Of a stretch of 63,803 nucleotides of DNA, positions 1 through 44,979 are shown piece by piece. Position numbers and translations under genes: made by a program. The notes under the pieces were generated by a model, which worked only from the letters and a program-made list of their open reading frames with translations, searched no databases and was not told where the DNA came from. Each line of letters begins with the position of its first letter. Within the stretch, counting starts at the first letter, position 1. The DNA is taken from assembly GCA_016748015.1 (NCBI GenBank), contig JAAOMT010000480.1:434001-497803 (forward strand), written 5' to 3'. This stretch comes from Geosiphon pyriformis uo1 (lineage: Eukaryota; Fungi; Glomeromycota).

Positions 1-2
1 GT

Positions 3-2410
3 GTGGATTACAAAAAACTCAACAGTGTAACTCATGGAGACAGCTACTTGACTCCACGAATCCAGGAATTATTTAACGCTTTTGATGGAAACAAATGGTT
101 CTTAATATTAGACTTGGATAGTAGTTACTGGCAAGTAGCCATGGATCCAGCTGACAAGGAAAAGACAGCATTCACTACTAGAGAAGGGAATTTCAAATTT
201 GAAGTAATGCTCTTCGGCTTAACCAATGTCTCAGCCATTTTCCAATGGCTAATAGAAATCATTTATACTGGCTTATTATGGAAATCAGTAATTGTATACT
301 TGGATGACACCAATGTATTCTCAAAAACATTTGATGATTATCTTCATCATTTTCAATAAGTGTTCGAAAAGTTAAGAAGAGCAGAACTAAAGTTAAATGC
401 AACAAAGTGCTTTTTCGGCAAGACAGAACTAAAATTCTTGGGACACATAATCAGTAAAGATGGCATTAAAATGAATCCAGAGAAAAAAGAGATAGTAAAA
501 AACTTTCCAGTACCAACCAATGTAACTGAATTGAAATCATTCTTGGGATTCGCAAGCTATTATCAATGCTTTATAAAGAACTTTTCAAAGATAGCTCAAC
601 TGCTCAATAATCTGTAAACCAAGAATACAAAATATGAATGGATAGAAAGTCAACAAAAAGCTTTTGATATTCTGAAAAGAAAGCTTATTCAAGCTCCAGT
701 ACTGATCTACTCAAATTACCATTCATCATTATTACTGATGCATTAGGCCAAGCATTGGGAGCAGTACTATCTCAGAAGGGACCAGACAGCAGAAAACATC
801 CAGTAGCATATGTCAACTGAGGTCTAACACCAGCTGAAAAGAATTATAAAACACCAGAACTAGAACATTTAGCAATCTATTGGGCAGTCATGAAGTGGAA
901 TGAATACTTGAGCCAAAAGTTTGATATATACATAGATCATAAAGGGTTAATATCACTTCAAAAGCAAGAATTTGATGACGGCCGCCAATCCAGATAGAAA
1001 ATGGCACTATCACAATATACTTATACTATACACTATAAGAAAGGAAAAGACAATGGAAATGCTGACAGTTTGTCGTGAATAAAACAAATCTAAAAACATT
1101 TCAACCCAAAAATATAACAAAACCAGAACAATACCAATAAAAAATAACAAAAGATGAACATACAAAAATATCAACAACTCCAACATTATATAAACACTTA
1201 AAAGTTCAAGGAGAATTTATCTCAAATAGAACAAAAGAGGATTAAACAACAATCAAAATATTTTATTACTCACCAAAATATACTTTATCAGAAAAATAGA
1301 AGAGATCTAGATCAACCAACCAGAGTAATTACAGAGCCAGAAAAAGAGACAATATTATTTAACATGCACTCAAATCCAACAGCCGGACATTTTCACAAAG
1401 AAGCAACCATAAAAAGAACCAGAAAAAGATACTATTGGCCATCAATGTATCCAGACATCATCCAATATGTTCAAAATTGTGACACTTGTCAGCAAAGAGG
1501 AGGAACAAGACCCAGTGAACTATTAAGACCAATCAAAGTGGGACAACCATTTGATTGGATTGGAATTGATTTAGTCGGACCATTAACAATTACCAGCAGA
1601 GGAAACAAATATATAGCAGTAGTCATAGACTATCTTACTAAATGGCCAGAGGCAAAAGCAATTCAAAGAGCAAATGCAGAATCCATTGCCAAATTTGTTT
1701 ATCAAGATTTGATTTGTCGACATGGATGTCCAAAAGAACTATTATCAGACCAAGGAACCCACTTTGTGAATAAAACATTAGCAGAATTAAGCCAGAGATT
1801 CGGAATTAAGAGACTATTATCATCACCATATCATCCATAAACAAATGGTCTAGTTGAAAGATTTAATAGAACATTGTGTGAAGCAATTGCCAAACTCAGC
1901 CAAGAAAACCAGGACGAATGAGATTTGTTCATATCATCAGTATTATTTGCTTATTGGATAATGAAACAAGATACTACACAAGCAACACCATTTAAATTAG
2001 TATATAGTAGAACAGCAACATTATTAGTAGAGAGAGAAATTAATACATATCCAGCTGAACCAATAACAGAAGAGAATTTTCAAGAAACATTGCTGAAAAG
2101 AACATATGACTTAATAGAAACATTGGAAAACAAACAAAGAAAAGCAGCTAATAATATTCAAAAGTCACAAAAAAAACAGAAAGAAAGACACAATAGTTAA
2201 CTACTAGACAAACCAGTTGAATTCAAAATTGGAGACAAAGTACTCTTATATTGTACCAAAGTGGAAAAACAATGGAGTGGAAAATTCGACCCCAAATGGA
2301 ATAGACCATTTCACATAGAAGAAATTTTAGGAAATGAAGCTTACAAATTAAGACTGAATAACAAAATTTTAACCAAAACAGCACATGGAGATTGACTGAA
2401 ACCATATCAC
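3..2410 (+). pseudogene. pol: pol remnant of A: RT (~3-620), RNase H (~715-1080), integrase with SH3-like tail (~1154-2410)
   Basis: ORFs 3..359, 360..617, 1364..1840 and 1925..2200. Stops are TAA/TAG/TGA at expected CAA/CAG/CGA/TGG codons. Confidence 0.93.
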
Positions 2411-3220
2411 AACATCATACTATCATTTACCAGTAATATTTCACAATTAGGAGTACAGAGAATACTAGTCCAACTAGATAAGATTCCACGAGATCTGAAA
2501 CCAATCGTTATTATCGACAACAACATGTTAAATTGATCCATCAAAAGAATATATAAAAACACAGTAGATGTGACAGGAAATATCAAAAAAAGGAAGATTA
2601 CAGACAACATTCACTCACTAGCACAACAACTTTTTCAATTGATCCAACACCAAGAAATGGAGATTACAATCAATCAATAAACCATTCAATATCAAGATAC
2701 AAAAAAGACATTACAACACAGAAAACAGAAGAAACCAGAAAATACTATTGACAAAATCATAGCAAAAGTAAAATTAGCAATAAAAAAATTAACAAAAGAG
2801 TCAATATATCAAGAGTTGACTAAGGAAACTTGGAATTGGTGAACACAACAATTTCCAAGAAACTATTGTTATTTTTACTTGGGACAACACGTAAATATCC
2901 AGAATTTATATATAGATAAAACAAAGCAGTTATTTGACACAACAATACTACAACAACTAGAACATTTTGTGGGGAAAAATAACTTATCCACACAAGCTTG
3001 AGCTATATACCTAATACATACAGCATTTCAAGATTGACCAGAAATCTTATTCAACAAAGCAATAGATATGGTTACCAGTAATCAATTGGGAAAGATCACC
3101 AATGCTCAATTTGAAGAATTACAAACTCAAATAACACAAGTAATTATCGAAAACAAAATCCAGGAGATACTTCAGAAAGGAGAATTAACAGAGTTGGATT
3201 TTGATGGAGCTCAATATTAA
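2411..3220 (+). pseudogene. ~270-codon unknown C-terminal extension in frame with integrase (env-position ORF3) of A
   Basis: Hand translation continues without frameshift from HGD(R)LKPY through ...NYCYFYLGQH...QLGKITNAQFEEL...ELDFDGAQY* (TAA 3218-3220). Only transition-type stops interrupt it. Confidence 0.8.
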
Positions 3221-3233
3221 AAAGAGGGAATAA

Positions 3234-4100
3234 TGTTACTCATAGAAATACAGGAAATATAGTAGTATGATTATTAGCCAATCAGAAGTAGACATAGTAA
3301 ATGTGGAATTCCAGAATTCCTCTCAAGAATTGCAGGATTCCAAGAATTACAGGATTCTTACACAAGGAATTGCAGGATTCCAGAATTCCAGGATTCTTCT
3401 TAAAGGAATTGCAAGATTCCAAGAATTCCAGGATTCCTGTCATGAAGAATCGAGGAATTGAAGAATCTCAATTATGTATATATAGTAGTAGCATTAGAAA
3501 CTGAAAAGAGAGATCCAGTTTAGATTTAATCTAAACAATCTTCCAGTTCCCAATTATCAAATAAATAATTATTTTATATCTCAATCCACTCTCCACTATT
3601 AACACTTCATGTTAATAGTAATTGATACTTAACCACGCTGGAACAATAGCTCTTGATCATGGCTATTGATGAAATACTAACTTACCAAATTGCCTTGGCT
3701 TATTTTCATTATTGTTATTTTCTTTATTTTATTTTTTTCTTTCTTTGATTTTGTTGTGCATACTAATTGATTGAGAATTAAAAACACTGAGTTATTAATG
3801 TTACAGATAGCCTGGTAAAAGACCCAGAAATAAGGATAGATTTATATATATTATCAATTAGCTTACCAGGAGAGCATGACTGCCAGAATAAATCTGGCCA
3901 CCAAGCTGAGAAAAAAATTGGGAAACAACTGACAACAAACAACAAATTGCCACACTATTGAATCTCTATCCATTATATAAAAGACTCCATCAAAACCTTC
4001 AGATACAACACTTTCAGAATATCATCGATAGAAATAGCTTTTGAACACCAAGTTATGGGTTTGTTATTTGACTTGAGACCCCAAATATTCAATCATAACA
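3234..4100 (+). repeat. 3' LTR of A (U3 type I, GGAATTCC array)
   Basis: TGTTACTCAT...CATAACA, TATA at 3477-3484, homologous to 8461-9307, 15457-16397 and 49936-50746. Confidence 0.95.
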
Positions 4101-6689
4101 CCATTAAGCAAAGGAAAACTAAAACAATCACTATTTACTTAAAATGCTTCCATAGAAACTTATGCTAAATACAAGCAATTGACATAAATTACTTTATAGT
4201 ATCACAAATTCTAAACCAGTTCATCCATGAGCTATGCAATAGCATCCTCCAATACATATGCCTAATGCACCCACAAACTCTCTAAGATGCAGTTATCAAT
4301 GCATAGGATTTTAAATTCGCAAAACTCAAAGCTAACCACACTTAAGCCATTAATTTAGTAATGAACAGATTATCTAAACTGGATTTCAAATTGAAACAAC
4401 TCAGTGATTCAATTAATTAGAAATTAGAAAGATATTTAGCTAACAATTGTGCAATTTATTAACCACCCCAATGATGCAATAATTCTGGAAATGTGAATTG
4501 CTCTCAAAATCAGTTATGTCTTTTATTATTATCCAATCAGCCATGGCAGCAAGAGATGTGTATTTACCACAATTGTAATAAACAAAGCCATTTGAGAATT
4601 AACTGCTGTTTTTATAATAATAACTTACAATCAGGAAATCAATATTGAAACCCCAATTGCAGGTTTTAAACTCTGAATTAATACCCAAATCAGGATCAAT
4701 ACTTACCTCATTACACCCAAATGACACAACAGCCAATTTATCAACCATTTATTTATTAGACTCTAGCACCAGTTATTTATCAACTACAGCTGCAAATAAT
4801 ATATCAACCCCAATAAATTCTCACACCACCACCAAATTCAGCTTAAATGACATCAGGGAATTCCAGATCAAGAGTTACTTAAAACTGGAGATCAGCAATA
4901 GTTGTCCACCAACTGATTCCCAGTTTTTCCAATTAATCATTGGGATTATGACAGTAGAGTTTGGGAACTAGGTACACACAAAACCCAAATTCTCAACACT
5001 ATTTAAGTCTCCTAGTAACTCCAGAAGACACCTCATCTAACAACACAGAACCCAATCAAACACAACCACTTATCAGCAATATATCTCTAGTTACTATTAC
5101 CAACAACAAATTACTAGCAGCAATTTTTCTGTTTGAACTCAAGGAACTATTATCTATGCCCTTGTTTAGTGGAGCCACTCTTGAAAAAAAACCAATCACT
5201 GCCATGTACATGGATGCTAAAGTTGATAGCCAATTCATCAAACTCATATTAAATAGCAGAACAGCAGATAATATCATTACATAACAATTCATAAACCAAT
5301 TAAGTCACTAAGTTGATCATACTGCCAGCACCAGAATCATAACAGCCAATGGAGCAACCAAAACTCCAATTGGTGAAATAAACGAATTACTTATTGAAAT
5401 CAATGGCATCATTATACCCATCAAAGTTCTTGTGATGGAAGCAACTTAGTACCAAGCTCTTATTGGAAACAACTGGCTGTTCAAAACTAATGCCATGCTC
5501 AACTGGAACACTCAAGAATTGCAGCTCACCCAAAACGGCCACTACACACATGTGCCAGCCACTTGTGGTCATTTTAAGACCACTGCCAAAGACAAGTCAC
5601 TTATTGAATTAAAAGAAAAAAAAAAAACCTAACTGAGAAGCTTACTAAGTTTCCTGGGCTAACAATGAACACAATGAGCTACCACCAGTACTTTTCTGGG
5701 ACAACAAAGAGAAAGGAAAAGAAAAAGACGTACTAGAAAAAGACATTACCACAGAAGAAATAATGAGTGGCTGGGAAAAATTCTACTCACATAAACCACT
5801 AAAGCAACTGTTATATATCCCACTCAAATGTCAAGATTGTGACAAGAAACTTTCTTCTATAAGAGCTTTGATTGTACCCAATGAAGATTACTGAATGCAA
5901 ACCCACTATTACTGCAAACCATGCCACAGAAAATAGTACAGCTATCTAAAATAACAAGACAAGTGAGACAACAAACCATGTTTTGTTTGTGAAGAACAGT
6001 TGCTTGACAAAGGAATATGGAACAACATTTCTGGTCAAGAAAGAACATGCGATATTTCATGCTAATACACAATCCTCATAAGTAACTGGATCAGTCATGG
6101 CACTCCTATTACTGCAGCCTGGCACTGAGCAATAACTCGCTTGGATGGTTACCCATATGACAAAGACAAAATTTGGAGAATGGTGAACACCAAAGTCAAA
6201 GAAGCCATGCCCAGCAAAATCTTGAAAATAAAAAATAATCCTCCAAAACCAGTTGACATTGTTTTCATCCCAAATCCAGATGTTTTTCTCAACATAGAGA
6301 CAGGCCCAGAGAAGTTTCATGAGCACTATCAAAATTTGGCACCAACAAAAAAAGAGCAGAAACAATATTTAGAAGAAATAAACACATGACTATGTGACCA
6401 TTGTTTAATTCTCTATGACTTTCAATATTGTAATAAGTGTAATCTCATTTACAATCCACCACTGCATATGATTTACACAATTCCAGAAGAAAAAGAACCA
6501 ATTAACAGCTGTACATCAGAATTGAAATCAACTTTCAATTCTGATTCAAACTCTAACAATGACAATAACAAAAACAATGGTTCTAGCTCTATGCAAATTG
6601 GCAACAATAACAATAACAATTCAAACTTAAATTCAAACTCCAAACAATATATCACATTTCTTGATTTCTTCAAGAAGCAGGAACTCAGA

Positions 6690-7115
6690 TGGTTCAGTGA
6701 CAACAATGAAGGTATTATGCCAGAATGTGCACATGATACCAATATTGGGTTTGATCTAAGATATCCAGGAAAAGATGCCATTAAATTGGAACCATATTTG
6801 CACACCTGCATTGATCTCAAAATAGCACTAGAAATCCTAGCAACAACAATAGTTCAACTAGCTCTAGGAGTAGTTTAATAAGAAAAGGAATCAACATCAG
6901 AGGAAAAATAATTGATACAGGATATATGAGAAATATCATTGTAATACTACAAAATGATTCAGAAAAGACCTATGTTATAGAGCCAAATAAAAAGATAGCA
7001 CAGGCAATATTTCTGTCTCTGATTAAAATAGCTCAATTAGTATCAGTGAGAAACAAGAAAGAACTAGGGATTATAGCTAGAAGAATACAAAGTTTCAGAT
7101 TCATAGGTAGAATAA
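6690..7115 (+). pseudogene. dut: dUTPase domain of B
   Basis: AHDTNIGFDL, IIDTGY, KIAQAIF and a degenerate RGxxGFGS motif. Confidence 0.88.
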
Positions 7116-7639
7116 ATATACCAGTTAATATGGCAGAGAAAGAAATTGTTAACAAGAGAAAAATTATCTCCACTTATCAATCAATTTTCATTTTACCATA
7201 TGACCAGTACATGTTAGCTATAGAAAGGAAAATAAATAATCAGGTTCAGATATTTGAAATAGAAGTCAAAACATATTCAACAAAACCAATAACAAAAAAA
7301 AATTTCCAAAGAACATTGTTGAAAAGAACATATAATTTAATAGAGACACTAGAAAACAAAAGATGAAAAGCAGCTGATAACATCCAAAAGTCACAAAAAA
7401 AACAAAAAAAAAAACATAATAACCAACTATTAGATAAACCAGTTGAATTTAAAATTAAAAACAAAGTACTTTTATATCATATCAAAGTAGAAAAACAATA
7501 GAGTAAAAAATTCAACCCCAAATGAGACAAACTATTTTACATAGAAAAAATTCTTGGAAATAGAGCTTATAAATTAAGGTTGAACAACAAAATCTTAACC
7601 AAAGCAGCATATAGTGATTGACTGAAATCATATTACTAT

Positions 7640-8448
7640 ATAGTATCATTATCTACCAATAACATTTTACAATTAGGAGTACAGAGAATACTAATACAAC
7701 CAGATAAGATTCCACAAGATCTAGAACCAATCATAATCATTGAACCAAACACATCAAATTAAACAACCAAAGGAGTATAAAAAGACATGGTATATGTAAC
7801 AAAAACAATATTAGAAAAATAGAAATTACTGACAGCATTCACTTACTAGCACAACAACTATTTCAATTAATCCAACAACAAAAAATAGAAATTACAATTA
7901 ATCAACAGACCATTAGATACAAAAACACCAAAAAGAACTCACAAAATAAAATACAGAAAAAAACAGAAAACACTATTGGAAAAATAATTACCAAGGTGAA
8001 ATTAGCAATAGAAACACAATCAAAAGTCATCTAATATCCAAAGTTGACAATAGGAACATGAAATTAGTGGATACAACAATTTCTAAGAAACTTTTGTTAC
8101 TTTTACTTGAGACAATACTTGAATATTCAGAACTTATATACAGATAAGACAAAGTAATTATTTGACACAGAAATATTACAACAACTGAAACAATTTGTGG
8201 GAAAAAACAATATAACCATACAAACATAAGTTATTTATTGACTACAAGTTGGATTTCAAGACAGGCCAGAAATTTTACTTAATCCAGCAATAGACATTAT
8301 TATTGTTAACCAAATGGGAAAAATAACCAATGCTCAATTTAAAGAATTACAAAACAAGATAACTCAAGTAATTCTCGAAAAAAAAGTTCAAAAAATATTC
8401 AAAAATAGAGAATTAGAATTAGGAAATCTTAATAGAGCTTAATATTAA
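7640..8448 (+). pseudogene. integrase-fused extension (ORF3) of B
   Basis: Colinear with 2411-3220 (NFCYFYL, MGKITNAQFKEL), in the integrase frame. Confidence 0.78.
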
Positions 8449-8460
8449 AGAAGGGAATAA

Positions 8461-9307
8461 TATTACTCATAGAATATAAGAAGTATATTAGCATATAAAT
8501 TAGCCAATCAGAAGTAAACATAGTAAATATAGAATTCCAGGATTCCTCTCAAGAAGAATTGTAGGATTCCAAGAATTTCAAAATTCTCATATGAGGAATT
8601 ACAGGATTCCAGAATTCCAGAATTCTTCTTAAAAAAAATTGCAGGATTCCAGAAATTCCAAGATTTCTGATGTGAAAAATCAAGAAATTAAGGAATTTCA
8701 ATTATGTATATATAGTAGTAGTGTTAGAAGTAGAAAAAACAGACCTCCCAGTTTAGATTTCATCTAAACAATCTTCCATAAACACAAATATCAATAAAAT
8801 AATTATTTACTATCTCAATCCATTCTCATTAAATCAACACTTGATGTTAATAGTAATCTGTACTTAATTACACTAGAACAATAGCTTTTGATCATTGCTA
8901 TTGACAGAATACTAATATGCAAATTGCCTTGGCTTACATTTTTATTTCTTGTATTTTTTCTTGTTTTATTTTCTTGTTTTGCTAACTTGATTAAAAGGAT
9001 TCACATGTGGAGATACTGACATCAAAATATAGCATTAGTAAAAAACCCAGGAATAAGAGTAGACACTCAGAATTAAGAATATCTTACCAGGAAGATTACT
9101 GGCTATTATGCTAAAAAAGAAATTGACGAAACTGTGGTTTTAAGAAGCTATGGATAAACAATTAATTGAATATTTGTCTATTGTACAAAAAACTTAAACA
9201 AAACCTTCAGATATAACAACCTTCAGAAACCAACATCTTTATACCAATTGAGTACCAAGTTACAAGTTTGTTATTTGCTTTAAGACCCCAAATAATTATC
9301 TGTAACA
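8461..9307 (+). repeat. 3' LTR of B (U3 type I)
   Basis: Preceded by PPT AAAGAAGGGAATAA; TATTACTCAT (G>A of TGTTA)...TGTAACA. Confidence 0.94.
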
Positions 9308-13748: not shown

Positions 13749-14278
13749 TTAATTAGTAGATAATAACAAAATAAAAAAATAAAAAAAAAAATAAAAAAAT
13801 AAAAAAATAAGCCAAGACAAAAAAGAGTTAATATTACATCAATAGTCATAATTAAGAACTATTGTTCTAGTGTGATCAAGTATTGAATACTATTAACATG
13901 AAGTGTTAATAGTAGAGAGAGTGATTTAATAGTGAATAATTATTTATTGATATTAATGATTCTAACAAAGATGTTTTAATTGGGAAATCTTAATATTGAT
14001 TTTTTTTTTCTGTTTCTAATGCTCTTGCTATATATACATAATTTGAGTTTTATGAAATTGCTTATATTTTTGAACAATGTGCTATAATTTTTTAAGCAAT
14101 GTGTCATGATTTTCTGACATTGTTCTATATTGTTAAACAATATGCCATAATTTTTAACAATGCTCCATATTGCTAAAAAATATGCTCATGTATTAACTAC
14201 TATTTTTCTATTAGTCTATTTGTTTTTTTTATTATTTTTTTGTATGTTTTTTTTTATGATTAATATTATCTCCTTCTT

Positions 14279-15090
14279 TTAATATTGAGCTCCATTAAAA
14301 TTTTCATTTTAAATTAGATTCATAACTTTTCTTTTTAATATTGTTTGTTCAACTCTGCTTCTTATATCTTTGATTTGCGAATTGTTTATTTTCTTCTATT
14401 GGTTAATAGTTATTGTCTCCATGTTAAGGTGTAGCAATATTTTTGGGTAGTTTTAAAATATTGTGTGTAATTAATAAATTGTTCTAATGTGTAGTGTCAG
14501 ATTTGTTTTCTTTCTAATAATGTCTTCAATATTTCTTATTATTTTTTGATTGAATATTCTTTTGGCTTTATTAAAATATAACTTCTGAATATTCAACTTT
14601 TGTCACAACTAATAGTAGTAATATGGTATTGGAAGTTGTTCTATTTACTGTTTCCAATTTTTTTTTGAAAGTTTTTCTGTTGGAACCATAATAGGTATTT
14701 TTCCAAAAGTATTCTTCACTTTTTCTATAATTTTATCTGACTAGTTTTTTGGTTGGTTCTGTAGTTGCTGATATAATGTACTTTTTTTTGCTTGGTGTTT
14801 TGATAACAGATTGTTTAGTGGTTAATAGTATTTTTTATGTTCAATTGTTGTTGATTTAAGGCCTGAAATAATTGTTGAGCTAAGGTGTGGATATGGTCTG
14901 GTATTTCTATTTTCTTTGGTTCTTTTATCACATATATTATGTTTTTATATATTTTTTTGGTCAATCAATTTGACATATTTAAATCAATGATTATAATTGG
15001 TTTCAAATTTTATGGGATCTTATCTGGTTGGACTAGTATTCATTGTACTCTTAGTTGTGGAATATTACTGATAGATAATAGTATTATATT
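14279..15090 (-). pseudogene. integrase-fused extension (ORF3) of E
   Basis: IPDHIHTLAQQLFQAL...GAQY*; homologous to the A and B extensions. Confidence 0.72.
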
Positions 15091-19149: not shown

Positions 19150-19570
19150 ATTCTACTCATGAATCTGAATCCATTGATCTTTTTTGCTGTTATTCTTAAT
19201 TTTTCTCTATTTTCTACTGATACTAGCTGAGCTATTTTAACCAGAAATAGAAATATTGCTTGTGTTATTTTTTCATTTGGTTCAATAATATATTTTTTTT
19301 CCAAGTCATTTTGTAGCATTGCAATAATATTTTTTATATATTTTGTGTCAATTATTTCTCTTCTGATGTTGATTTCCTTCTTCGTTAAACTAGATCTAGA
19401 GACTAATTGTACTATAGTTGTTGTAAAGATTTCTAGTGCTATTTTCAGATCAATGCAGATACACAAATGTGGTTTCAATTTGATAACATCTTTTCTTGAA
19501 TATCTTAAATCAAACTTTATATTAGTATCATATGCATATTTTGGCATAATATCTTTATTATTATTACTGA
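19150..19570 (-). pseudogene. dut: dUTPase domain of E
   Basis: FDLRY, SRSSL, IIDTKY, EKITQ and NGFRF in ORF 19056..19793. Confidence 0.87.
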
Positions 19571-20394
19571 ACCATTTTAGTTTTTGCTTTTTGAAAAGAT
19601 TAGAAAGTACAATATATTGTTCAGAGTTTGAATCTGAGTATGAATTGTTGTTATTGGTGTTGTCATTTTGGACTGAGCTGGAATTATTGTTTTTATTATT
19701 ATTGTCAGAGTTTGAATTGGGATTGGATTTTAATTCTGATTTCAATGCATAGTTACTGATTGGTTTTTCTTCTTCTGGGATTGTGTAGATCATGTATAGT
19801 GGTGGATTGTAGATGAGTTTATACTTATTACAATATTGAAAGTCACATGAAATTAAACAGTGTTGACAAAGTCAAGGATTTAACTATTATAACTGCTGTT
19901 TTTGTTCTGCTCTGGTTGATGTTAAATTTTGGTAGTGCTTATAAAACTCTTTAGAACTAGTTTCAATATTGACAAAAATATTTGGATTAGAAATAAAAAA
20001 AGTTTTGGCTGGTTCAGGTGGGTTATTTTTAATTTCTAATATTTTATTGAACAAAACATTTTTGACTTTAGCATTTGTCATTCTCCAAATCTTATCTTTA
20101 TCATGTGGGTAACCATCTAAGTGTGATAAAGCACAGTTTTACATGACATTAAAAAGCATTTTTCTGCTGATCCAATTGCTTATAAGGATCATATATTGGC
20201 ATGAGACATTATATGTTTTTCCTTGACTAAAAATGTCATTCCACATTTTTTTGTTGAGTAAGGTTTCCTTACAAGTGAGACATAGTTTGTTGTCTCATTT
20301 TTTTTGTCTTTTTGAGTAGCCATAGCATTTATGGTAGTATGGCTTGCAATAATAGTGCATGTATGTTCAGTAATTTTTGTCAGGTGTAATCCAG

Positions 20395-23909: not shown

Positions 23910-24335
23910 ATTTTACCTATTAATCCAAATCCTTATATCCCTCTAGCAGTAATTTCTAACTCTTTCCTGTTTCCTACTAATACTAACTAAGCTACTTTTA
24001 CCAGAGGCAGGAATATTGTCTGTGCTATCTTTTCATTTGGCTCTATAATATAGGCCTTTTCTGAGTCATTTTGTAGCATAGCAATAATATTTCTTACATA
24101 TCCTGTATCAATTATTCCTCCTCTAATGTTGATTCCCTTTTTTGCTAAGCTACTTCTAAATGCCAACTGAACTATTGTTGTTGCTAGAATTTCCAATGCT
24201 ATTTTGAAATCAATGCAGATATGTGAATGGGGTTCCATTTTTATGGCATTCTTTCCTGAATATTTCAGATCAAACCCTGCATTAGTATCATGTACGTATT
24301 CTGGTATAATACTTTCACCATTATTGCTGAACCAT
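23910..24335 (-). pseudogene. dut: dUTPase domain of F
   Basis: AGFDL, RSSLAKKGI, GGIIDTGY, EKIAQ and ARGIxGFG: all five trimeric-dUTPase motifs are recognisable. Confidence 0.93.
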
Positions 24336-28785: not shown

Positions 28786-28791
28786 TAAAAG

Positions 28792-28808
28792 TGGTGCTCT
28801 CTGTGAGG
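28792..28808 (+). promoter_or_regulatory. Primer-binding site TGGTGCTCTCTGTGAGG
   Basis: Complement reads CCTCACAGAGAGCA-CCA, a tRNA-like 3' end. Identical to the F PBS (45773-45789). Confidence 0.85.
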
Positions 28809-28836
28809 TTGTCAAATTCACTTATTCCCTCATTGT

Positions 28837-32427: not shown

Positions 32428-33408
32428 TGTTACCGAAGGTTTTTGGTCTCTTTTCTTAAATGTTGTTAATGTTGATTTGTTGTGAATTCACGTTTCCAGG
32501 AAGTAGTTGGACCTCCAGTAACTGAATTTATCTTCAAATTATCTCCTATAATTTGAACTTGCTGGGCTTATGAGTGGAATGGCCAATTTTGTGCCAGTTG
32601 CTTTATGTAGTTATGTTGTAGTAAACATCAACTCTTTCCCAGAAATTGCTCATCTGGAAGCTTATTAAAAATGTGTAGTTACTTTGCTGTAAAAGTCAAC
32701 TTTTCTACAGAAATCTTGTCTGTAGGCTACCTTAATGATTGTAATAAGAAAATAAAAGAAAAATAAAAGAAATGTAAAAGAAATAGAATTTTGTCAAGAG
32801 AAACATTTTTTATCCAGGCCTGAAGTCACTAACAGTTTACTGAAATTGGTAGCTAATCAATTTCAAAACGTTAGTTGGGTTTTGAGAATTTTCCAAGTGC
32901 AATAATTTAAAGAATTTGGTTTTTCAAATTATTTGATATTTATTTCTTTTTGTGTGTGTAGAAATGGTTCTAAGTGATAAATCTAAAGTAAGATACATTT
33001 TCTCAAAGAGAGATGCTCTTTTTTTATACAACTTGTCATAACACTATTCTATAAACTTGAACTTTGCTATTTTCTACAATTTCACTGAACTAAAAATACA
33101 TTTTGGCAAACTACAAGTTATTTCTGCAAACTATTAGATATTTCAGTGAACTATCAATTATTTTGGTGAATTTCTACAAATTTCGGCAAACTTTTGAATG
33201 TTACCTAGTTTAGGGTATTGCATAATTTGATTATTGCAATTAGGTTACATTTGTGTTGTGTACAAATTAGGTTATTAATTAAATGATAATTTCGGACATT
33301 TTGCTAATGTAATAAGTAATAATTTGAAACAATAATATATGCTAATTAATGATAGGATTTATAAGATAATTTCATGCTAAATAATATCTCTAATTTTGTC
33401 TGGTAACA
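32428..33408 (-). repeat. 3' LTR of I
   Basis: Direct repeat of 41291-42271; TGTTACC...GGTAACA inverted termini. Confidence 0.97.
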
Positions 33409-34096
33409 TAATCTTCTCCTCAAGACTGAGCTCCATCGAAGTCCAAGTACTGTCTGTAATTTCCAGATAATAATCCACAATTATTGAAGAAATTTGGTCT
33501 GAAAATTGTTGAAATTTCAGTTCTGTGAGCTTTCCAATATATTGAATTTTCAAAAGTCATAAAATTGGGTTTTGTAGGACATTTTCACAGGTGTGGAATA
33601 GGTTATAAAGTCTAAGAGCAGCTCTGAGCTTGTAGCGACTGTTTGTTGGTCCAGCTGTTGTCTTGAATTCGTTGTGGAGTTGTTTCTGAATAGCTTCTTT
33701 TGTGAGGTTTGCTGTTGTAAGTTCTAGTTTCCGTTTATAGAGTGTTTTTCCAATGTGAAAATATCTATAGATTGGAGGATATTCAGTGTTTTCCTCATTG
33801 AGACACAGTTGAAGTCTTTGTTAAATTGTAGCATTTGGTGAAATACTAATCAGAGTGAGCATTAGGTTTTCTTTTAAAGCAAGCTTTAAAAGTTCTGGCA
33901 GGTGAATTCCAGAATAACTTCTTGTGTTCTTCTTATATGAGTGATATTTTCGCAAATTTGGGGCTAAATTTGTAACTACTTCTGTTTAGGTATAATTAAT
34001 GTGGTTTCCAGTAACAGTAATGAATAATTCGGGTATTGTTTTTAAAGCTAACATTAGTTTTTGGGATAATTGTTGAATGTTTTGAGGAATAGTCAT
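33377..34096 (-). pseudogene. Stand-alone env-position ORF3 of I (~239 aa, three premature stops), ending inside the 3' LTR
   Basis: Hand translation MTIPQNIQQLSQKLMLAL...YRYFHIGKTL...RAALRLYNLF...YIGKLTELKFQQF...IRDII*. Confidence 0.78.
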
Positions 34097-34199
34097 TAAA
34101 AGAGATTTGAAATAAAAGAAAATTATTTTTGGTGTATGAGTTTTTATGTTATTTTTGTTTTGATTGTTTCTAAATTATAAGGGAATAACTAGTAAAATT

Positions 34200-37100
34200 A
34201 AATTAAGTGTTCAGATTGAAAGGTTGTTCAATGACAACTATTGGTTCTAAGTTTTGGGATTAACTAAAGAGGAATATGTACCAATTTGTGGAATTAATAG
34301 TTCAGGATTGTTTCTGGAATGATAGTGTTTTAAACAATCTCTATGTGTAACTTTTGCTAGGATTTTGTCATCAAGTCTTAGCTTGTATGATCTGTTGCCT
34401 AGGACTTCATAGATAAAGAATGGTCTATCCCATTTATTTTCAAATTTTCCACTCCATTGTTTTTCAGCTTTAGTTCTGTGTAAGAGAACTTTGTTTCCGA
34501 TTTTAAATTTATTGGTGACTGGAGGCAATTTGTCATCATGCCATTCTTTTTGTTAAGCTTGAGAGTGTTCAATATGGGTGGCTGCTATTCGTCATTTTCC
34601 TTCCAATGTGCTAAGCAAAGTATAGGCTCTTTGCTAAAGTGTTTCTTGGAAATTGTTTTCATTGATTGGTTGTGCTGAGTATGTTTCCACTATGAAACTA
34701 ATTGGTAATGTTGCTGTCCTTTCATAAGTTAAATCAAATGGTGTGTGTTTTGTGGTATCTTGTTTTAGTGTTCTGTATGCTAGCAACACTGATGGAATAA
34801 AGATATCCCACTCTTGCTCAAAATCAGTTGAGACTTTGGCTAATGACTTATACAATATTCTGTTAAAATGTTTCACAAGTCCATTTGTTTGTAGATGGTA
34901 GGACAAAGACAGAGGTCTTTTGACATTGAATTGTTCACAAATTTCTTGTATCAGGTTGTTCACAAAGTGTGTCCCCTGATCAGATAAAAGTTCAATTAGA
35001 CATCTATGTCTACAAATGATGTCTTCATAGATGAAATTTGCTACTGATTTCGCATCTGCTCGTTGAATGGCTCTGGCTTTGGGCCATTTAGTAAGATAGT
35101 CTACAGCTACTGCAATATAACAGTTTTCTTGAGTGATAATAGATAGTGGTCCGACTAAATTGATACCAACTTGGTCAAAGAGTTGTCCAACTTTAATTGG
35201 ATTTAATGGTTCAGTAGGGCATGTTTCTCCTCTTCTTTGACAACTATCACAAGATTCAACATATTCATGAATATCTTTTCTCATTTGAGGCCAAAAGTAG
35301 TATTCTAGTGTTCTTTGGATGGTGCCATCTTTTCCGAAGTGTGCTGATAAAGAATCTGAGTGCATATTGTATAATATGATAACTTTTTTCTGTTCTTGTA
35401 TTAATCTGAGTGGTTTGTTTGGGTTTTTGAAATTTCGATGATAAATAATGTTGTTGTGTAGAAAATATTGTTTGGTTTGTTGTTGTAGTCGATGTTTTTC
35501 ATCTGGAGACCAATCTGTTGGGATTGTTAATGTTTCCAAATATTGCTTGAGATTGTTGTAGTTTTTTGAATTCATTGTTTGTTGGCTCTTTTGGTTGGTT
35601 AAGTTGAGTGTTGGTTTTTGTGTTTTCTAATCTTGTCTCATTCTGGAGAGACAGTCAACATTGGTGTGGAGTTTTCCTGGTTTGTGATGTACTATGTATC
35701 AATAGTTTGCTAGAAATCCTGTTTATCAGGTTTGTTTTGCATTCAGCTGAGTATTTTTGTTCTGAAGCCATTTGAGTCCAATATTATCAGTGATAATATC
35801 GAATTCTTTAGGCCTAAGATAAAGGTTGAAATGGTGTAGAGCCCAAATTACGGCTGCTGTTTCTAGTTCTGTGGCAGAATAATTTTTCTCAGCTGGTTTT
35901 AATGTTCTGCTGGCATAGGCGATTACTCACTCATTTCTATTGTTATCTAATTGTGATAAGATAGTACCAAAGGCAGTATAAGAGGCATCTGTTGCTAATT
36001 GGAATTGGTTGCTGAAATCTGGATAGGCAAAGATTGGAGCTGTTGTCAGTTTTTCCTTGAGAATTTCAAAAGCTTTTTGGTGTTCGGTAGTCCATTTGTA
36101 TTCAACGTTTTTGGTGGTGAACTGGTTAAGAGGTTTTGTAATTTCCAAGAATCTTTTGATAAACTTCTGATAGTAGGATGCTAATCCTATGAATCCTCTT
36201 AGTTCTGTAGTGTTTTGAGGAGTTTTGAAGTTTTTGACAACGCTGATTTTTCCAGAGTCTGGTGTGATTCCATCTTTACTAATGATATGCCCAAGAAAGA
36301 CCAGACTTGTTTTTCCAAAGTAGCATTTTTTGATGTTGAGTTTTAGTTCTGCTTTTCGTAATCATTGAAAAACTTCTTGCAGGTGTTTTAAGTGTAATTC
36401 GAACAATGGAGAATAAACATCAGTATCGTCAAAATAAATAACTACTAACTTCCAAAGAAGTCCTTGGTACACAACATTCATTAATCTCTGAAACATTGCT
36501 GGTGCATTGTATAATCCGAAAGGCATTACATTAAATTCGTAATTTCTGCCTTGGGTGGTGAATGTTGTCTTGGGGCAATCTTTGGGATCCATAGCAACTT
36601 GTCAGTAACCGCTTTCTAAATCTAGTGTTGAAAAGTATTTGGATTTTCCAAGGGCATCTAACATGTCATCAATCCGGGGAAGGGGGTAGGCATTTCCAAT
36701 TGTAATACTGTTGAATTGTCAATAGTCAACACAAAATTGGATCTTTCCATTTTTTTTTTTAACTAGCACTACAGGTGAAGTCCAAGAACTCATGGAGGAT
36801 TGGATAAACCCATTGTTAAGCATTCATTGTACTTCTTCTCAGATGAATTGGTGGCTTTCTGGAGCAACTCGATATGCTTGTTGTCTTCTTGGTTTGGCAT
36901 TTCCTATATAAATTTAGTGTTGGACCAAATCGGTTTTTCCTAAGTCATTGTTGTTTTCAGTAAAGATATCGGCAAATTCTGCAATTAGCTCTTTGAGCTG
37001 GATCTGTTGTTGTGGTTCAAGTTGTCCCATGTTGATTTGAGATAGTTTTTCCATGACAACATGGTAGTTTTCGGAGCTGGGGTTTGGATTGATTTTTGTT

Positions 37101-40100
37101 AGTAAATGTCCAATAATTTCAGAGAAATCGGAAACTGTTTGGGGTAATTCTTGTTGAAATATATTACTGTGAATAATTCTAATTTCTAAATTATTTAATA
37201 AAATTATGGGGTAATTATTGGGGTTGTAAAAAGTAACTTGGACTTTCTTTGTTCCTTCTGGAATATAAATATTTGAGATCAAAATATTATGTTCTAAGCA
37301 GACTTGTTCATTGGACTCAAAAATTTGTTGTGTGGTTGTTGGCTTTGGGCAGATGTAGATTTCTGAATGTTTTCCAAAGGGTGAGATAGTAATTGGTTGT
37401 GGAAGTCTGAGAATCTGGTGGGATTCGTTTTGTGTATTAAAAGCTATATTAACTGGAATTGTAAATCATCCAGTTGAACCAAAACCTTGGGTTCCTCTAT
37501 TGCTTTTTCCTAATTGTTCTCTTTGATTGACTAGTTGCAAACCCAAAATGTTGATTAGGGGTAGGTAAATAGCTTGGGCAATTTTTTCAGCATGTTTGAT
37601 CTTGAATAGTTTGTCAGTTTCATTTTGAAGCCTTATTGTAATGTCTCCAGTATATCCAGCATTGATTATTCCTCCTCTGACATTGATTCCTTTGCTTGCC
37701 AGAGAGGACCAGAAGGTGATTTGAACTATTGCTCCTGGTGGGATTTCGAGTGCAATTTTGAGGTTGATTTTTGTGAAAGATTTGGGTTTGAGAACAAGAG
37801 TATTTTTGCCTGGATATCTTAGGTCATATCCAGCATCAACTTCGTGTGCTTTTTCAGGTTTTATTCTTTGTCTGTTGTTGTTGAAGTATTTAAGTTGTAA
37901 GACAGGCTGATTTTCGATAAGATAGATGTGTGTTGTTTTAATTTCTTCTATTGCTTCAGGTTCTCCAAATTCAATTTCATTCTCATCATTTTTGCTGGGC
38001 TAGAGGATACTAAGAGTGTAGCATTCAGGACACTACTGTTTATTACAAGGCATAATGCATTCTTCACATAGCCTAATGTTCATTTGCTCTAATTGTTGAA
38101 TTTGAGCTTCTTGAGTTGGGTAGGTGTGACTTGCAATTTGGTGATAGACTTCTACTTCATCTTTGTAATTGAATCCCGCTAATTCCATGGTGTATTCAAT
38201 GTATTCTGCTTCCTTCATTTGATGAACATCTTCTTTGGTAGCTCTATTAATTAATGCCATTGCTAGGTCGAAAATCATCTCGGCATCATAGGAGTAGTGA
38301 TAAAATTTGTTAAGAGCACTGTTGTATGCTGCATTAAAGGGTGTTCCTCTTTTTACTTTTTCTGAAATTGATAAAGCATATTGGCAGGTCTGATCGCAGA
38401 CTCCTCCTTTCATGGCTACATCAATCCAATTACATTCTTCTGGTAGCATATCTCCACAAGTCAAACAAGGGGTGTTATCCCATTTTCCACTTCTTTTTAT
38501 TAGATGGTCTCATTGTTCTCTGTGACAAGCCTTGCAGTAATAACAAGTATGATTCTTATATTCTTCTTCTGGTAAAATACAGGCTCCCATTGACAATAGT
38601 TTCTTGTGGCAGTCTTTACATTTAAGAGGAATATAGGGGTGTTGTTTCCTTGGTTCAGGTTTTGAGTAAAGGATATTCCATCCAGAGGTTTTGGGTTTAG
38701 AGTGTCGGGTAAAATGTTCTTGTTCTGTTTTATCAGCCCAGTTGAACATTGATCCAAGAGCCATGAATGTTTTAATGAAGGGTTTTTCCTCTTCCAGTTT
38801 GAATTTAAAAGCCAGGGTTTTTTCAGAGCATTTGTTAAATATACCACAAGTGGCAGATACCTGGGCATGTTGTCCTTGGTAGGAGATTGTTAACTCTTGT
38901 GTTTCCCAATTCAGATTAGCATTGGCTTTTTGAAGCCAATTATTTCCGATGAGAGCTTGATACTGGGGTGCGTCCATTACAAAAACTTTGACTGGAATGG
39001 TGATTCCATCAAGAGTAAATGGAAAATTGTCAATTTCTCTTACTGGGGTCTTTTTCATGCCATGGGCAGTGACGATTACTGTTTGAGCTGGTCGGTTGAC
39101 ATTTCTTTTCAACTGTTTCATTAACTGGTAAGTGATAATGCTTCCAGCAGATCCATTGTCTAGGATCAAGCAAATTGTCTTTCCTTTGACTTCTGCTTCA
39201 GTGTACATAGCCATGATTGCTTTTTGTTCATTGGCGGCTGCATTGCTAAGCAGAAATGGTAACTCATTTGCTTCGAACTCAAAAGGGAATATATCTGAAA
39301 GATTAGCATTTTCAGCAATTCTGGCTGGTGGGATTGTAGTAGGAGTATAGAAAAAGTTTTGTTGTTGTGTTGCAGCTCTACCTTTCAAGGGTGCAGTATG
39401 GTGAAAATCCTGTTCTTCTGGCATTGTTAAATAACTAGGTTGAGTGTGATAGTGGTTGGGTCTTGGTTGAGTGGAATTTTGGGGAACCAATTGGTTGTTT
39501 GAACTGATTCTATTGTTGTTTACTTGGTATTGGTTTTGTGGTGTAAATTGATTTTGTGTGATCAGTCTTCAAATAGGTACTTGATAATATTGTGTGGGTG
39601 GTTGTTGATATTGTTGTTGGATTGGCTGTGGGGCAGGCTGATAATAGTTATTTTGGTATTGGGTCTTGGTGGATAGTAAGCTGGTGGTGGTGGTTGATAA
39701 TAAGATTGCTGTGGTGGAGGGTAACGTTGATTATTCCTATTTTGTTGGTCTCATTGTAACTTTCTGCAATCTCTTTTCCAGTGGCCAGAGATTCCACAGT
39801 AATGGCAATTCTGAGGCTGGTTATTAGAAAGTGGTGCAAAGTTATTTTGATTTTGTCTTTGGGATGGTTGATATCTTTGGGGTTGCTGTTGTTGTTGATT
39901 AGTGAAATAGTTTTCAACCTTCTTTGTGAGTTGGTCAATTTTTTTCTTAGCTGCTGAGCTGGTTTTTCCAATTGCCAAATTTACAAGTTTTGTGTAATTG
40001 GCCTCTTCCATGACCATTTCGTATCTTTTTGCATGCTGTATGGCAGAGTTTAAATCTTCTGGCACATGTGGGCGAATCTTTTTAATTAGTTTATCTTTTA

Positions 40101-41289
40101 AACCAGTGATAAATTGATCCAAGATTTGAGCATCAGAATAATAATTGTTTGTTTTGAGTTGGTGAATTTGTCTGAGAAGTTTGTTGAATTTCCCAATATA
40201 AGTCATAACAGATTCGGAAGGTTCTTGTTTGATATTTCAAAAATGATTGCAAAGGGTAATGGAGGTATTATTGTCAGTGAACTGTTCAAGGAAGGCTGCT
40301 TTGAAAGCATTTCAATCATTGAATGGGGCAGCCAAGTTTTCAAACCATTCTCCTGCTGTTTTTTTGAGAAAGTAAGAAATTGTTCTTAACATTCTGACAG
40401 CATTCCATCCATTTGCATCTTCAGCTTTAGTAACTTGGTCGAGCCATTTTTGGAGACTGGTCTCAATGTCTTTTCCATTAAATTCAGAGATTTTTGTGAT
40501 GTATGTTGTCATTTTATCTTCTTCGTTTTCACTGTCTATTGATTCTTCTTCAGATATTTCAGGTTCATTTTCTTCGTTCACTGCTGTCTTAAAGTGTTCA
40601 CTTTGATTTTCAGCTAGAAAGTCAAGGAGATTAGAACTAGTTTGAAGGGGTTCTTGTTGTCTGATAGAACTTTTGAGTGATGTAAAATCTTCTGGTCTTG
40701 CAAATCAATTCAAGGGTGAATTAGGCATTTGTGCTTGTGCAAGTAAAGCTAAAAAAGGTGTGATAGTAAGTGGAAGTTTTGAACTGGTTCCTTGTTCAGA
40801 TGTTTGTAAATGGTTGGCAGTTGTTTTTGGTAGTGTTGGAGTATTTGGGGTGGTTTTTGAGTATTGCTTCAATTTGTTTTTGTCTTTGTTGCTTGTTTCT
40901 GTTTCCAATTCAAAATCAATAGAGTATTGAGACTGCATTAGGTATGTTTCTTCACAGTATTTGATAATGTTAAAATTAAGTTCGTGAAAATAAGTGGCAA
41001 GTGTTTTGCTGTTAAGGTCTTCAGTTCCCAACTGTGAATAGTGTACTAAATTATTGTAAAAGTTGCTTCTAACTTCTGAGATATTGTAATTTCCAAAAAG
41101 ATAATTGTTGATGCAGTTTTTAATGTATTGGTATACTGATTTCTTGACAACTTCAATTTCATCTGAGATGTTGAATCTTTGCTTGCAGTGGATGTAAATT
41201 AATTGGTAATACTCTAGAGTTGTTGTATCTGGTGTGATCGCCACTTTGAATTTTGTTGTTGCTGTGTTATTTCCATGGGAGAGCACCAA
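34200..41289 (-). pseudogene. gag-pol of I: N-extension, capsid, CCHC knuckle, PR, CxxC module, dUTPase, dUTPase-like, RT, RH, IN
   Basis: ORFs 40705..41289, 40312..40581, 39751..40206 (CHYCGISGHWKRDC), 38510..39490 (ILDNGS), 38033..38464, 36914..37282, 36362..36592 (YFDD), 34634..35575 and 34247..34528. Confidence 0.93.
37470..37885 (-). pseudogene. dut: dUTPase domain of I
   Basis: DAGYDL, SSLASKGI, GGIINAGYTG, KIAQAIY, RGTQGFGSTG. Confidence 0.93.
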
Positions 41290-41290
41290 A

Positions 41291-42271
41291 TGTTACCAGA
41301 GGTTTTTGGTCTCTTTTCTTAAATGTTGTTAATGTTGTTTTGTTGTGAATTCACGTTTCTAGGAAGTAGTTGGACCTCCAGTAACTGAATTTATCTTCAA
41401 ATTATCTCCTATAATTTGAACTTGCTGGGGTTATAAGTGGAATGACCAATTTCGTGCCAGTTGCTTTATGTAGTTACATTGTAGTAAACATCAACTCTTT
41501 TCCAGAAATTGCTCATCTGGAAGCTCACTAAAAATGTGTAGTTACTTTGCTGTAAAAGTCAATTTTTTTACAGGAATCTCATCTGTAGGCTACTCTAATG
41601 ATTGTAATAAAAAAATAAAAGAAAAATAAAAGAAATGTAAAAGAAATAGAATTTTGTCAAGAGAAACATTTTCTATCCAGGCCTGGAGTCACTAACAGTT
41701 TACTGAAATTGGTAGTTAATCAATTTCAAAATGTTAGTTGGGTTTTGAGAATTTTCCAAGTGCAATAATTTAAAGAATTTGGTTTTTCAAATTATTTGAT
41801 ATTTATTTCTTTTTGTGTGTGTAGGAATGGTTCTAAGTGATAAATCTAAAGTAAGATATATTTTTTCGAAGAGAGATGCTTTTCTTTTATACAACTTGTC
41901 GTAACACTATTCTATGAACTTGAACTTTGCTATTTTCTATAATTTTGCTGAACTAAAGATACATTTTGGCAAACTACAAATTATTTCTGCGAACTATTAG
42001 ATATTTCAGTGAACTATCAATTATTTTGGTGAATTTCTACAAATTTCGGCAAACTTTTGAATGTTACCTAGTTCAGGGTATTGCATGATTTGATCATCGC
42101 AATTAGGTTATATTTGTGTTGTGTACAAATTGGGTTATTAATTAAATGATAATTTCGGACATTTTGCTAATATAATAAGTAATAATTTGAAACGATAATA
42201 TATGCTAATTAATGATAAGATTTATAAGATAATTTTATGCTAAATAATATCTCTAATTTCGTCTGGTAACA
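41291..42271 (-). repeat. 5' LTR of I
   Basis: Followed on the minus strand by TT + TGGTGCTCTC PBS. Confidence 0.97.
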
Positions 42272-44322: not shown

Positions 44323-44979
44323 ATGAACAATTATTTCCTAGATCAAAACATTCAAAACACTTTCTATACTCTCCATGAGTACTGGATCAAAAATTATCCA
44401 AATGTTACTCTGACCATTGGAAAACAAACCACCATAACTGATAACAGTAGAACACATACTGTTATTAGACCAAAGAAAACCACTACCAGAAGAGAAAGAA
44501 TTGGTAGCAAAATAGATAAGTATTTGCTGGAAAGCATAACAGCAGCAATACTTACACCTTCCATGACAATTGGAAAAACGATTAAGGAAATCTTGCCCAT
44601 AGACAAAAACTTGTCATATAAAAGACAACTAGAACTTTATGGTTGTCTTGGTGAAATCATAGAAGAAATGAAGCTCATGAAGAAAACAACTTCAGAAATA
44701 CAAGTGGAAATTTTGGGCATTATACATTTAGATATCTCAAGAGTTTTGACCATTGCAAGAAAAGCCAAAACTCTTATACAAAGATTTAGTCTCTTGGATA
44801 CAAAGCTTATTTTGCCTCAAGTACTATATACTTTATCCATAAAAGACTTCAACAAACTAGTTGGTTTTAAGTTAGACAAAACCCTTCAATTAGAATACCC
44901 TATAAATAGCTTGATTTCACCGGAGCTCAATCTCTTTGGAGAGGATGATGTTATGATTGAAACCCATAATTTTTATTAA
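44323..44979 (+). CDS. Stand-alone env-position ORF3 of G (218 aa from first ATG, uninterrupted), ending inside the 3' LTR
   Basis: ORF 44227..44979 with ATG 44323, ~40 nt after the pol stop; motif similarity to the A, B, E and I ORF3. Confidence 0.75.
   Translation: MNNYFLDQNIQNTFYTLHEYWIKNYPNVTLTIGKQTTITDNSRTHTVIRPKKTTTRRERIGSKIDKYLLESITAAILTPSMTIGKTIKEILPIDKNLSYKRQLELYGCLGEIIEEMKLMKKTTSEIQVEILGIIHLDISRVLTIARKAKTLIQRFSLLDTKLILPQVLYTLSIKDFNKLVGFKLDKTLQLEYPINSLISPELNLFGEDDVMIETHNFY

What the first reader, a model, noticed from the sequence alone, without database searches (positions are those of the whole stretch)
2411..3220. Conserved unknown protein at the env position of three Gypsy families, fused to integrase in one
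Seen: every intact 3' end (A 2411-3220, B 7640-8448, E 14279-15090, I 33377-34096, G 44323-44979) has a 220-270 codon frame between the integrase SH3 tail and the PPT. Hand alignment shows shared blocks: IxxIxxLxQxL...IxI; YCYFYLG / YRYFHIG / LYGCLG; AxxxYxLF-like; LGKITNAQFEEL / IGKLTELKFQQF / LYTLSIKDFNKL. Family 1 reads it in frame after integrase, where chromoviruses carry a chromodomain. Families 2 and 3 have their own ATG and stop inside the LTR. No signal peptide or TM segment is apparent, so it is not env-like. Inference: a novel helical accessory module (targeting, anti-silencing or DNA binding) that switches between fused and free forms. It reminds me of an expanded uncharacterised Glomeromycota family with an A.KIY.LF...ISKLT motif (recollection only).
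Basis: partly seen in the sequence, partly recalled or inferred. Interest (0 to 1): 0.85.

Follow-up and report, generated by a model that had tools for sequence, protein, structure and literature searches.

The report
Free-standing third gene of fungal retrotransposons
Several Gypsy jumping-gene families of a fungus (likely Geosiphon pyriformis) carry a real, conserved extra gene of no described family just after integrase, separated from it by a true stop codon, which likely encodes a DNA-binding regulator of the element's own terminal-repeat promoter.

Summary
The third ORF is real; the fusion is not. The window is a pile of decayed Ty3/Gypsy elements, very likely of the fungus Geosiphon pyriformis. 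All five intact 3' ends carry a sense ORF3 of 209-239 aa between pol and the 3' LTR. In family 1, pol ends at a genuine stop (2534-2536): laid contigs vary there only TGA/TAA. ORF3 has its own ATG at 2591 in other copies. Families 1 and 2 are homologous (hhalign 92%, E 5.5e-7); family 3 is only a probable remote member. ORF3 is under purifying selection (dN/dS 0.24-0.28), soluble, not env-like, and matches no Pfam, PHROG or PDB family. Further types occur in Geosiphon and in unnamed metagenomes, one shown free-standing in the same position. ORF3 type travels with a type-specific tandem array in the LTR U3, upstream of a TATA-like box. Best guess (0.4): a trans-acting DNA-binding activator or anti-silencer of its own LTR. 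Folds were low-confidence and expression is untested. The scan noted similar ORF3s earlier on other fungal DNA.

The parts
1..2536 (+). Element A (family 1) pol: RT, RNase H, integrase, SH3 and C-terminal tail, ending at the stop TGA 2534-2536
   Evidence: family-2 pol gene model P0201 ends at the homologous place
2537..2590 (+). 54-nt spacer with a TATA-like box about 44 nt before the ORF3 start; a second possible ATG position at 2561 in other copies
   Evidence: dN/dS 0.82 and 1.63 in the pol frame over 17-18 codons; TATA scan; gene-model starts
2591..3220 (+). ORF3 of copy A (family 1, 209 aa); start codon mutated and four decay stops in this copy
3206..3233 (+). Conserved GGAGCTCA motif and PPT; the motif is read in different frames in family 1 versus families 2 and 3, so it is likely a cis signal
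3234..4100 (+). LTR shared by A (3') and B (5'), with a 39-40-bp U3 tandem array at 3306-3436 and a TATA-like box at LTR+243
7819..8448 (+). ORF3 of copy B (family 1, decayed; start approximate); B lacks RT, RNase H and the integrase core
14279..14910 (-). ORF3 of copy E (family 1b, frameshifted; start approximate), followed by a different U3 array at 14066-14185
33377..34096 (-). ORF3 of complete element I (family 2a, 239 aa, three stops); 106-nt spacer after the pol stop; reads through the PPT into the 3' LTR (32428-33408; 20-bp array 33106-33163)
32428..42271 (-). Complete family-2 element I (gag, PR, dUTPase, RT, RH, IN, ORF3), LTRs 94.9% identical, 4-bp TSD CCAG, nested in element G
44323..44979 (+). 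ORF3 of element G (family 3, intact 218 aa); 41-nt spacer after the pol stop at 44279-44281; ends in the 3' LTR (44949-45663; 12-bp array 45036-45143 before a TATA-like box)
55554..56070 (-). Heavily decayed family-3 ORF3 relic in 13% GC DNA

Best explanation
ORF3 is a free-standing, conserved accessory gene of these fungal Gypsy elements, and it likely encodes a nuclear DNA-binding protein that would act in trans on the element's own LTR repeat array to switch on, or keep unsilenced, its promoter. Shown: separate gene after a real pol stop; purifying selection; soluble; basic linker; family 1/2/metagenome homology; ORF3 type tied to U3 type. Inferred: expression from its own short transcript (internal TATA-like box or spliced RNA); an N-terminal helix plus beta-hairpin, then a basic segment, then a helical core that binds DNA; target = the U3 tandem array; effect = activation or anti-silencing.
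For: Free-standing: and L007 with a 316-nt spacer. Selection: dN/dS 0.28 (A-B) and 0.24 (A-E), against 0.60-1.80 in shifted frames and 0.57-0.99 in the A-B LTR. ORF3 evolves faster than IN: protein identity 25-31% where IN is 55-61%. ORF3 and U3 diverge together in E (identity 0.79-0.84 in the IN core/SH3, 0.51-0.69 in ORF3, 0.42 in U3, 0.76-0.77 further into the LTR). Family 2a/2b ORF3 types never carry the other's U3-encoded tail (0 of 89 readable; 31 of 120 had no readable tail). Each of four ORF3 types has its own 12-40-bp tandem array upstream of a TATA-like box. Basic stretch (net +4 to +6 in 15 aa) at residues ~33-68 in 10 of 10. Precedent: VANC targets form tandem repeats that vary between related TEs (PMC5735166, abstract). 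DNA methylation and small RNAs occur at TE loci in an AM fungus (10.1101/2021.03.30.436303, abstract); CpG o/e in the window is 0.21.
Against: No direct evidence of DNA binding, location or expression. AlphaFold models are poor (pLDDT 43 and 40). Best structural matches are Z 6.4 (rmsd 3.3, 67 aligned) and Z 5.3, within the tool's background. ORF3 and U3 are adjacent, so linkage alone predicts their co-segregation. Tandem arrays in U3 are common and may bind host factors. Palindrome enrichment is weak: A 2/200, B 1/200, G 0/200, E-type solo 8/200, but E 93/200, A-type solo 19/200, both I arrays none, and control stretches gave 6/200 and 15/200. The family-2 spacer has no TATAWAW box.
Confidence: 0.4

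Rival explanations
1. ORF3 is an RNA-binding or particle-associated helper (genomic RNA export, packaging, nuclear import of the pre-integration complex, or suppression of RNAi), like retroviral accessory proteins.
For: Same soluble, basic, fast-evolving profile. The review proposes such roles for plant aORFs (PMC7264820, main text). B keeps gag, PR, dUTPase and ORF3 while lacking RT/RH/IN core, though this may be post-insertion loss.
Against: Does not by itself predict the type-specific U3 arrays; no RNA-binding fold or motif was found.
Confidence: 0.3
2. ORF3 is a separate integration-targeting cofactor that does in trans what a chromodomain does in cis, possibly joined to integrase now and then by splicing or read-through.
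For: These integrases have no chromodomain. Family 1 ORF3 is in frame with pol in A and E. 47 of 389 stored gene models join an IN piece to ORF3.
Against: The joins fall at many different points, as expected of automatic predictions. None of the 7 family-1 joins keeps both the IN end and the ORF3 start. The spacer shows no coding constraint, B has a 2-nt insertion in it, and families 2 and 3 are out of frame. ORF3 diverges with U3 rather than with IN in E.
Confidence: 0.15
3. One reading: in family 1 the domain is part of the Pol polyprotein and the stop at 2534 is decay damage.
For: Same reading frame in A and E; CpG-type stops are common elsewhere in these copies.
Against: Stop in 3 of 3 window copies. 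Among 298 laid contigs the only listed variant of that codon at 3% or more is TGA>TAA (47 contigs, 29% of depth). True decay stops at 2678 and 2840 read as sense codons in 98% and 79% of depth, and 2591 reads ATG in 99%. Family-2 pol ends at the homologous place.
Confidence: 0.03
4. ORF3 is functionless, or an env remnant.
For: Most window copies are broken; it occupies the env position.
Against: dN/dS 0.24-0.28; frame and start kept across lineages at 25-31% identity; no TM segment and 0-3 cysteines.
Confidence: 0.04

Closest known systems
Sense additional ORFs between pol and the 3' LTR (aORF-3S) of LTR retrotransposons (PMC7264820); 'add. ORF of unknown function' and PR-RT dUTPase in fungal Gypsy elements (PMC2864245, figure legend and passages)
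   Same: Position, orientation, presence in most copies, conservation, unknown function; dUTPase in families 1 and 2.
   Different: The plant sense aORFs discussed are mostly TM-bearing env-like proteins; this one is soluble. No sequence comparison with the published fungal add. ORFs was possible, so identity with them is untested.
Non-env ORF3s of bdelloid rotifer LTR elements (PMC5408684, passages)
   Same: A separate ORF3 after pol in dUTPase-bearing elements; some are 210-230 aa.
   Different: Those are fusion glycoproteins, TM proteins, GDSL esterases or DEDDy exonucleases; none of these families is hit here.
VANC anti-silencing proteins of Arabidopsis VANDAL DNA transposons (PMC5735166, abstract)
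   Same: Element-encoded accessory protein; tandem repeats that differ between related elements. A works-like model only.
   Different: No sequence similarity detected; retrotransposon rather than MULE; binding and demethylation are untested here.
3' regulatory genes of complex retroviruses (foamy virus Tas, HTLV Tax, HIV Nef; recalled, from no call)
   Same: Small gene between the enzymatic genes and the 3' LTR, overlapping PPT/U3; Tas and Tax act on U3 elements.
   Different: No homology shown; fungal host; no env.
Chromodomain of chromoviruses (PMC2864245, passages)
   Same: Lies just after integrase.
   Different: A chromodomain is part of Pol; ORF3 is a separate gene and has no chromodomain match.

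Membership tests
Ty3/Gypsy LTR retrotransposon (host element) | gag-PR-RT-RH-IN order, LTR pair, PPT, TSD | tested here: met
   (element I complete, TSD CCAG)
Integrase C-terminal module (chromodomain-like fusion) | continuous reading frame with integrase | tested here: not met
   genuine stop at 2534-2536; own ATG
Integrase C-terminal module (chromodomain-like fusion) | chromodomain profile match | tested here: not met
   Pfam gives only SH3_Tf2-1 on the IN tail plus ORF3 at E<=0.05
env / env-like ORF3 | position between pol and 3' LTR, sense strand | tested here: met
env / env-like ORF3 | transmembrane anchor or signal peptide, cysteine-rich ectodomain | tested here: not met
   max KD19 0.27-1.41 and 0-3 Cys in 10 of 10 proteins; no dedicated signal-peptide predictor was run
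Sense 3' additional ORF (aORF-3S) | present in most copies and conserved like other element genes | tested here: met
   5 of 5 intact 3' ends; 130, 26 and 203 database hits; dN/dS 0.24-0.28
Sense 3' additional ORF (aORF-3S) | own (spliced or internal-promoter) transcript | not testable with these tools
   no RNA run was listed
VANC-like anti-silencing factor | tandem repeats in the own element that differ between related elements | tested here: met
   four array types; circumstantial only
VANC-like anti-silencing factor | sequence-specific binding and loss of methylation in trans | not testable with these tools
   needs EMSA, DAP-seq and methylome data
DUF1016_N (YhcG N-terminal domain) | significant profile match | tested here: inconclusive
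   Pfam E 0.12 in 1 of 19 members; Atlas 0.85; hhalign 0.5-0.7% against a 6-sequence profile, within the shuffle range
Helix-turn-helix / Myb-like DNA-binding fold | structural match of the helical core | tested here: inconclusive
   pLDDT 43 and 40; best Z 6.4 and 5.3; PDB sequence hit to a telomeric DNA-binding protein at E 0.57

The most novel reading that the evidence does not exclude
These fungal Gypsy elements encode a family of sequence-specific DNA-binding anti-silencers or transactivators, each co-evolving with and inherited together with its own U3 repeat array. This would be a VANC- or Tas-like system in an LTR retrotransposon, and could help explain the LTR expansion to about 41% of the Geosiphon genome.
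Probability: 0.25. Interest if true: 0.8.

Novelty: new variant of a known kind. Interest (0 to 1): 0.45.

Why it matters
The function of non-env third ORFs in LTR retrotransposons is an open question (PMC7264820). This family gives a directly testable case: at least five divergent types in one genome, four of them paired here with their own LTR array, so cognate and non-cognate binding can be compared. If true, it shows how a retrotransposon evades fungal silencing and supplies new sequence-specific DNA binders. In practice, hundreds of G. pyriformis 'hypothetical proteins' are this transposon gene and inflate its gene counts.

Tried and rejected
Fusion to integrase: rejected. My own idea that copy I is frameshifted and family 2 really ends like family 1 before the PPT: rejected, because family-2 gene models read into the LTR; the shared 3' DNA is a cis motif read in two frames. 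Pfam and PHROGs (best E 0.006): nothing at a curated or convincing level. PDB sequence searches: best E 0.26. ESM Atlas: all hits under 0.9. Foldseek against BFVD: none at E<=0.001. VIA-align: no Z>=8; a missing fold match from poor models says nothing. DUF1016_N: not significant. Phage tblastn, viral contigs and the first metagenome scan: no relatives. Family 3 by local hhalign: not significant; it was not among the 111 hits; family 1 versus 3 is weak globally (7, 32 and 36 of 500 shuffles); the N-terminal block alone is not significant (10, 38 and 186 of 500). No RNA holder was listed; runs X2 and X3 laid nothing. No whole genome is held, so copies could not be studied in DNA context genome-wide. 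The complex predictor was not available, so the oligomeric state is untested. The B-E dN/dS pair was not computed (the script stopped). No family-1 search for proteins over 646 aa was run with the word-index tool; one search has no length limit, and its longest hits (745-1034 aa) begin with ORF3.

Full report
Setting. The window is a nest of decayed Ty3/Gypsy elements. All listed close hits of the three ORF3s are Geosiphon pyriformis gene models: 120 listed of 130 for family 3, 26 of 26 for family 1 and 120 listed of 203 for family 2. The host is therefore very likely this glomeromycotan fungus, whose genome is 41.2% LTR sequence (PMC11952901, passages). Element I (family 2) is complete at 32428-42271, with LTRs 94.9% alike and TSD CCAG, and is nested in element G (family 3, 28131-45663). 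A and B (family 1) share an LTR; B lacks RT, RH and the IN core; E is interrupted by an LTR in opposite orientation. Families 1 and 2 carry a dUTPase; none was found in G.

Observation. An ORF3 follows integrase at 5 of 5 intact 3' ends, and a sixth relic lies at 55554-56070. Only G is open (218 aa).

The fusion is wrong. In A the pol frame stops at TGA 2534-2536. B has TAA and E has TGA at the aligned place. Contigs of run X1 were laid on 2503-2572 (298 contigs). Only two variants were listed at 3% or more: G2535A (TGA>TAA; 47 contigs, 29% of depth) and T2541C. No CGA or TGG form appeared. Caveats: one run, possibly the window's own sample; contigs drop rare variants; only variants away from contig ends are listed, but the neighbouring base was scored. 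By contrast, decay stops at 2678 and 2840 read as Gln and Trp in 98% and 79% of depth, and codon 2591 reads ATG in 99% (40 of 112 rows were shown). 14 of 31 family-1 gene models carry this Met at residue 1-11, and it aligns with Met1 of family 2. A family-2 gene model ends at the homologous place of the integrase tail. The spacer shows dN/dS 0.82 and 1.63 over 17-18 codons, and B has a 2-nt insertion in it. Of 389 stored proteins, 47 join an IN piece to ORF3 at scattered points; none of the 7 family-1 cases keeps both the IN end and the ORF3 start. I read these as automatic splicing predictions; real rare splicing is not excluded.

It is a real gene. Nei-Gojobori dN/dS over ORF3 is 0.28 (A-B, 197 codons) and 0.24 (A-E, 191 codons), with third-position excess p 0.0045 and 0.0026. 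The IN segment gives 0.26 and 0.16, shifted frames 0.60-1.80, and the A-B LTR 0.57-0.99 (single decayed copies, transition bias not modelled).

One family? Families 1 and 2 match at 92% probability, E 5.5e-7, over 182 columns. A profile search of 1.84 billion representatives gave 111 hits. They add Geosiphon types 1b (E-like), 4 and 5 at 35-43% identity to family 1, and four unnamed metagenome proteins at 26-31% to family 2 (20 of the 111 were looked up). One of these was fetched with its DNA: L007 has RT-RH-IN, a stop, a 316-nt spacer, ORF3 with its own ATG, the same GGAGCTCA motif, PPT and TGTTACC. Family 3 was not retrieved, and local hhalign is not significant. A global profile alignment to family 2, with the cis-motif tail trimmed, beats 500 of 500 shuffles in three nulls (Z 3.7-4.2) and 73 of 73 real-protein windows. 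A deeper HMM aligns it collinearly from the N-terminus at 8.4 bits, above 258 shuffles (max 6.0). The predicted secondary-structure order is similar, and its integrase is the most distant (42-49%). I put family-3 homology at about 0.75.

Anatomy. Predicted N-terminal helix and beta-hairpin, a basic linker at residues ~33-68, then a helical core with a pattern Y-[YF]-x-[IL]-G ... G-K-T-N ... R-A-x-x-R-L-Y-x-x-F ... [IL]-G-K-[IL]-T-x-x-x-F (read from the alignments). No TM segment and few cysteines. No described family or fold was found. The models are too poor (pLDDT 43, 40) for that blank to mean a new fold. Weak leads point to helical DNA-binding domains (6hn7 Z 6.4, 7p4a Z 5.9, DUF1016_N, TEBP-1 E 0.57), each within chance.

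Link to the LTR. In E, identity to A and B falls from about 0.83 in integrase to 0.46-0.73 in ORF3 and 0.42 in U3, and returns to 0.70-0.77 further into the LTR, while A-B stays 0.69-0.86. Family 2a and 2b ORF3s carry different U3-encoded tails with no cross-over (57 and 30 typical, 2 other tails, 31 of 120 unreadable). Each type has its own tandem array (39-40 bp A/B, 20/40 bp E-type, 20 bp I, 12 bp G) upstream of a TATA-like box. Adjacency alone could give this, and the palindrome test is mixed. A TATAWAW box lies 44-129 nt before the ORF3 start in family 1, family 3 and L007, but not in family 2. The background of 0.04 per 100 nt comes from pol and understates AT-rich spacers.

Mechanism. 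Most likely (0.4), ORF3 is made from its own transcript and binds the cognate U3 array to activate or unsilence the LTR. Only the gene's reality, independence, solubility and linkage are shown. Rivals: RNA or particle helper (0.3), separate targeting cofactor (0.15), no function or env remnant (0.04), Pol fusion (0.03).

Literature. Seen: PMC7264820 (main text, parts 1-2 of 3), passages of PMC5408684, PMC11728184, PMC2864245 and PMC11952901, and abstracts of PMC5735166 and 10.1101/2021.03.30.436303. Searches listed no paper whose title, abstract start or read passages describe this protein family. The library lacks most subscription journals, the G. pyriformis genome paper was not seen, and no supplements were read. 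The retroviral analogies are recalled. Earlier unchecked notes of this scan describe similar ORF3s after integrase in other fungal DNA; sequence look-ups found no look-alike, so their kinship with this family is untested.

Verdict. A real, apparently undescribed non-env ORF3 family, a new variant of the known class of additional ORFs. The fused/free switch is refuted. Interest 0.45.

Noticed in passing
window 3206-3233, 33409-33434 (-), 44922-44948; L007 3090-3118: A GGAGCTCA motif sits 26-28 nt before the 3' LTR in families 1, 2, 3 and L007 and is read in different frames, so it is likely a cis signal next to the PPT.
   Followed up: partly
window 4100-9307: Element B shares an LTR with A and keeps gag, PR, dUTPase, the IN tail and ORF3 but lacks RT, RNase H and the IN core; a possible non-autonomous derivative or a later deletion.
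   Followed up: partly
window 37466-37999, 19167-19583, 23915-24343, 6681-7108: dUTPase between PR and RT in families 1 and 2, not found in family 3; known from other fungal Gypsy elements.
   Followed up: partly
window 52000-58500: Very AT-rich block (10-15% GC) holding a heavily decayed family-3 ORF3 relic and an RNase H frame at 51979-52446; much stronger decay than in the neighbouring elements.
   Followed up: no
window 61706-63436 (-): Gln/His/Ser/Pro-rich exons of a probable host gene, with no Pfam hit at curated level; 258 N at 58730-58987.
   Followed up: no
window 44282-44322: Many family-3 gene models join upstream pieces to a point a few codons before the ORF3 ATG, which hints at a usable splice acceptor (prediction only).
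   Followed up: partly
window 32428-33408 vs 41291-42271: LTR pair differences are 48 transitions of 50; only about a third are in CpG context, so decay is not CpG-only.
   Followed up: partly
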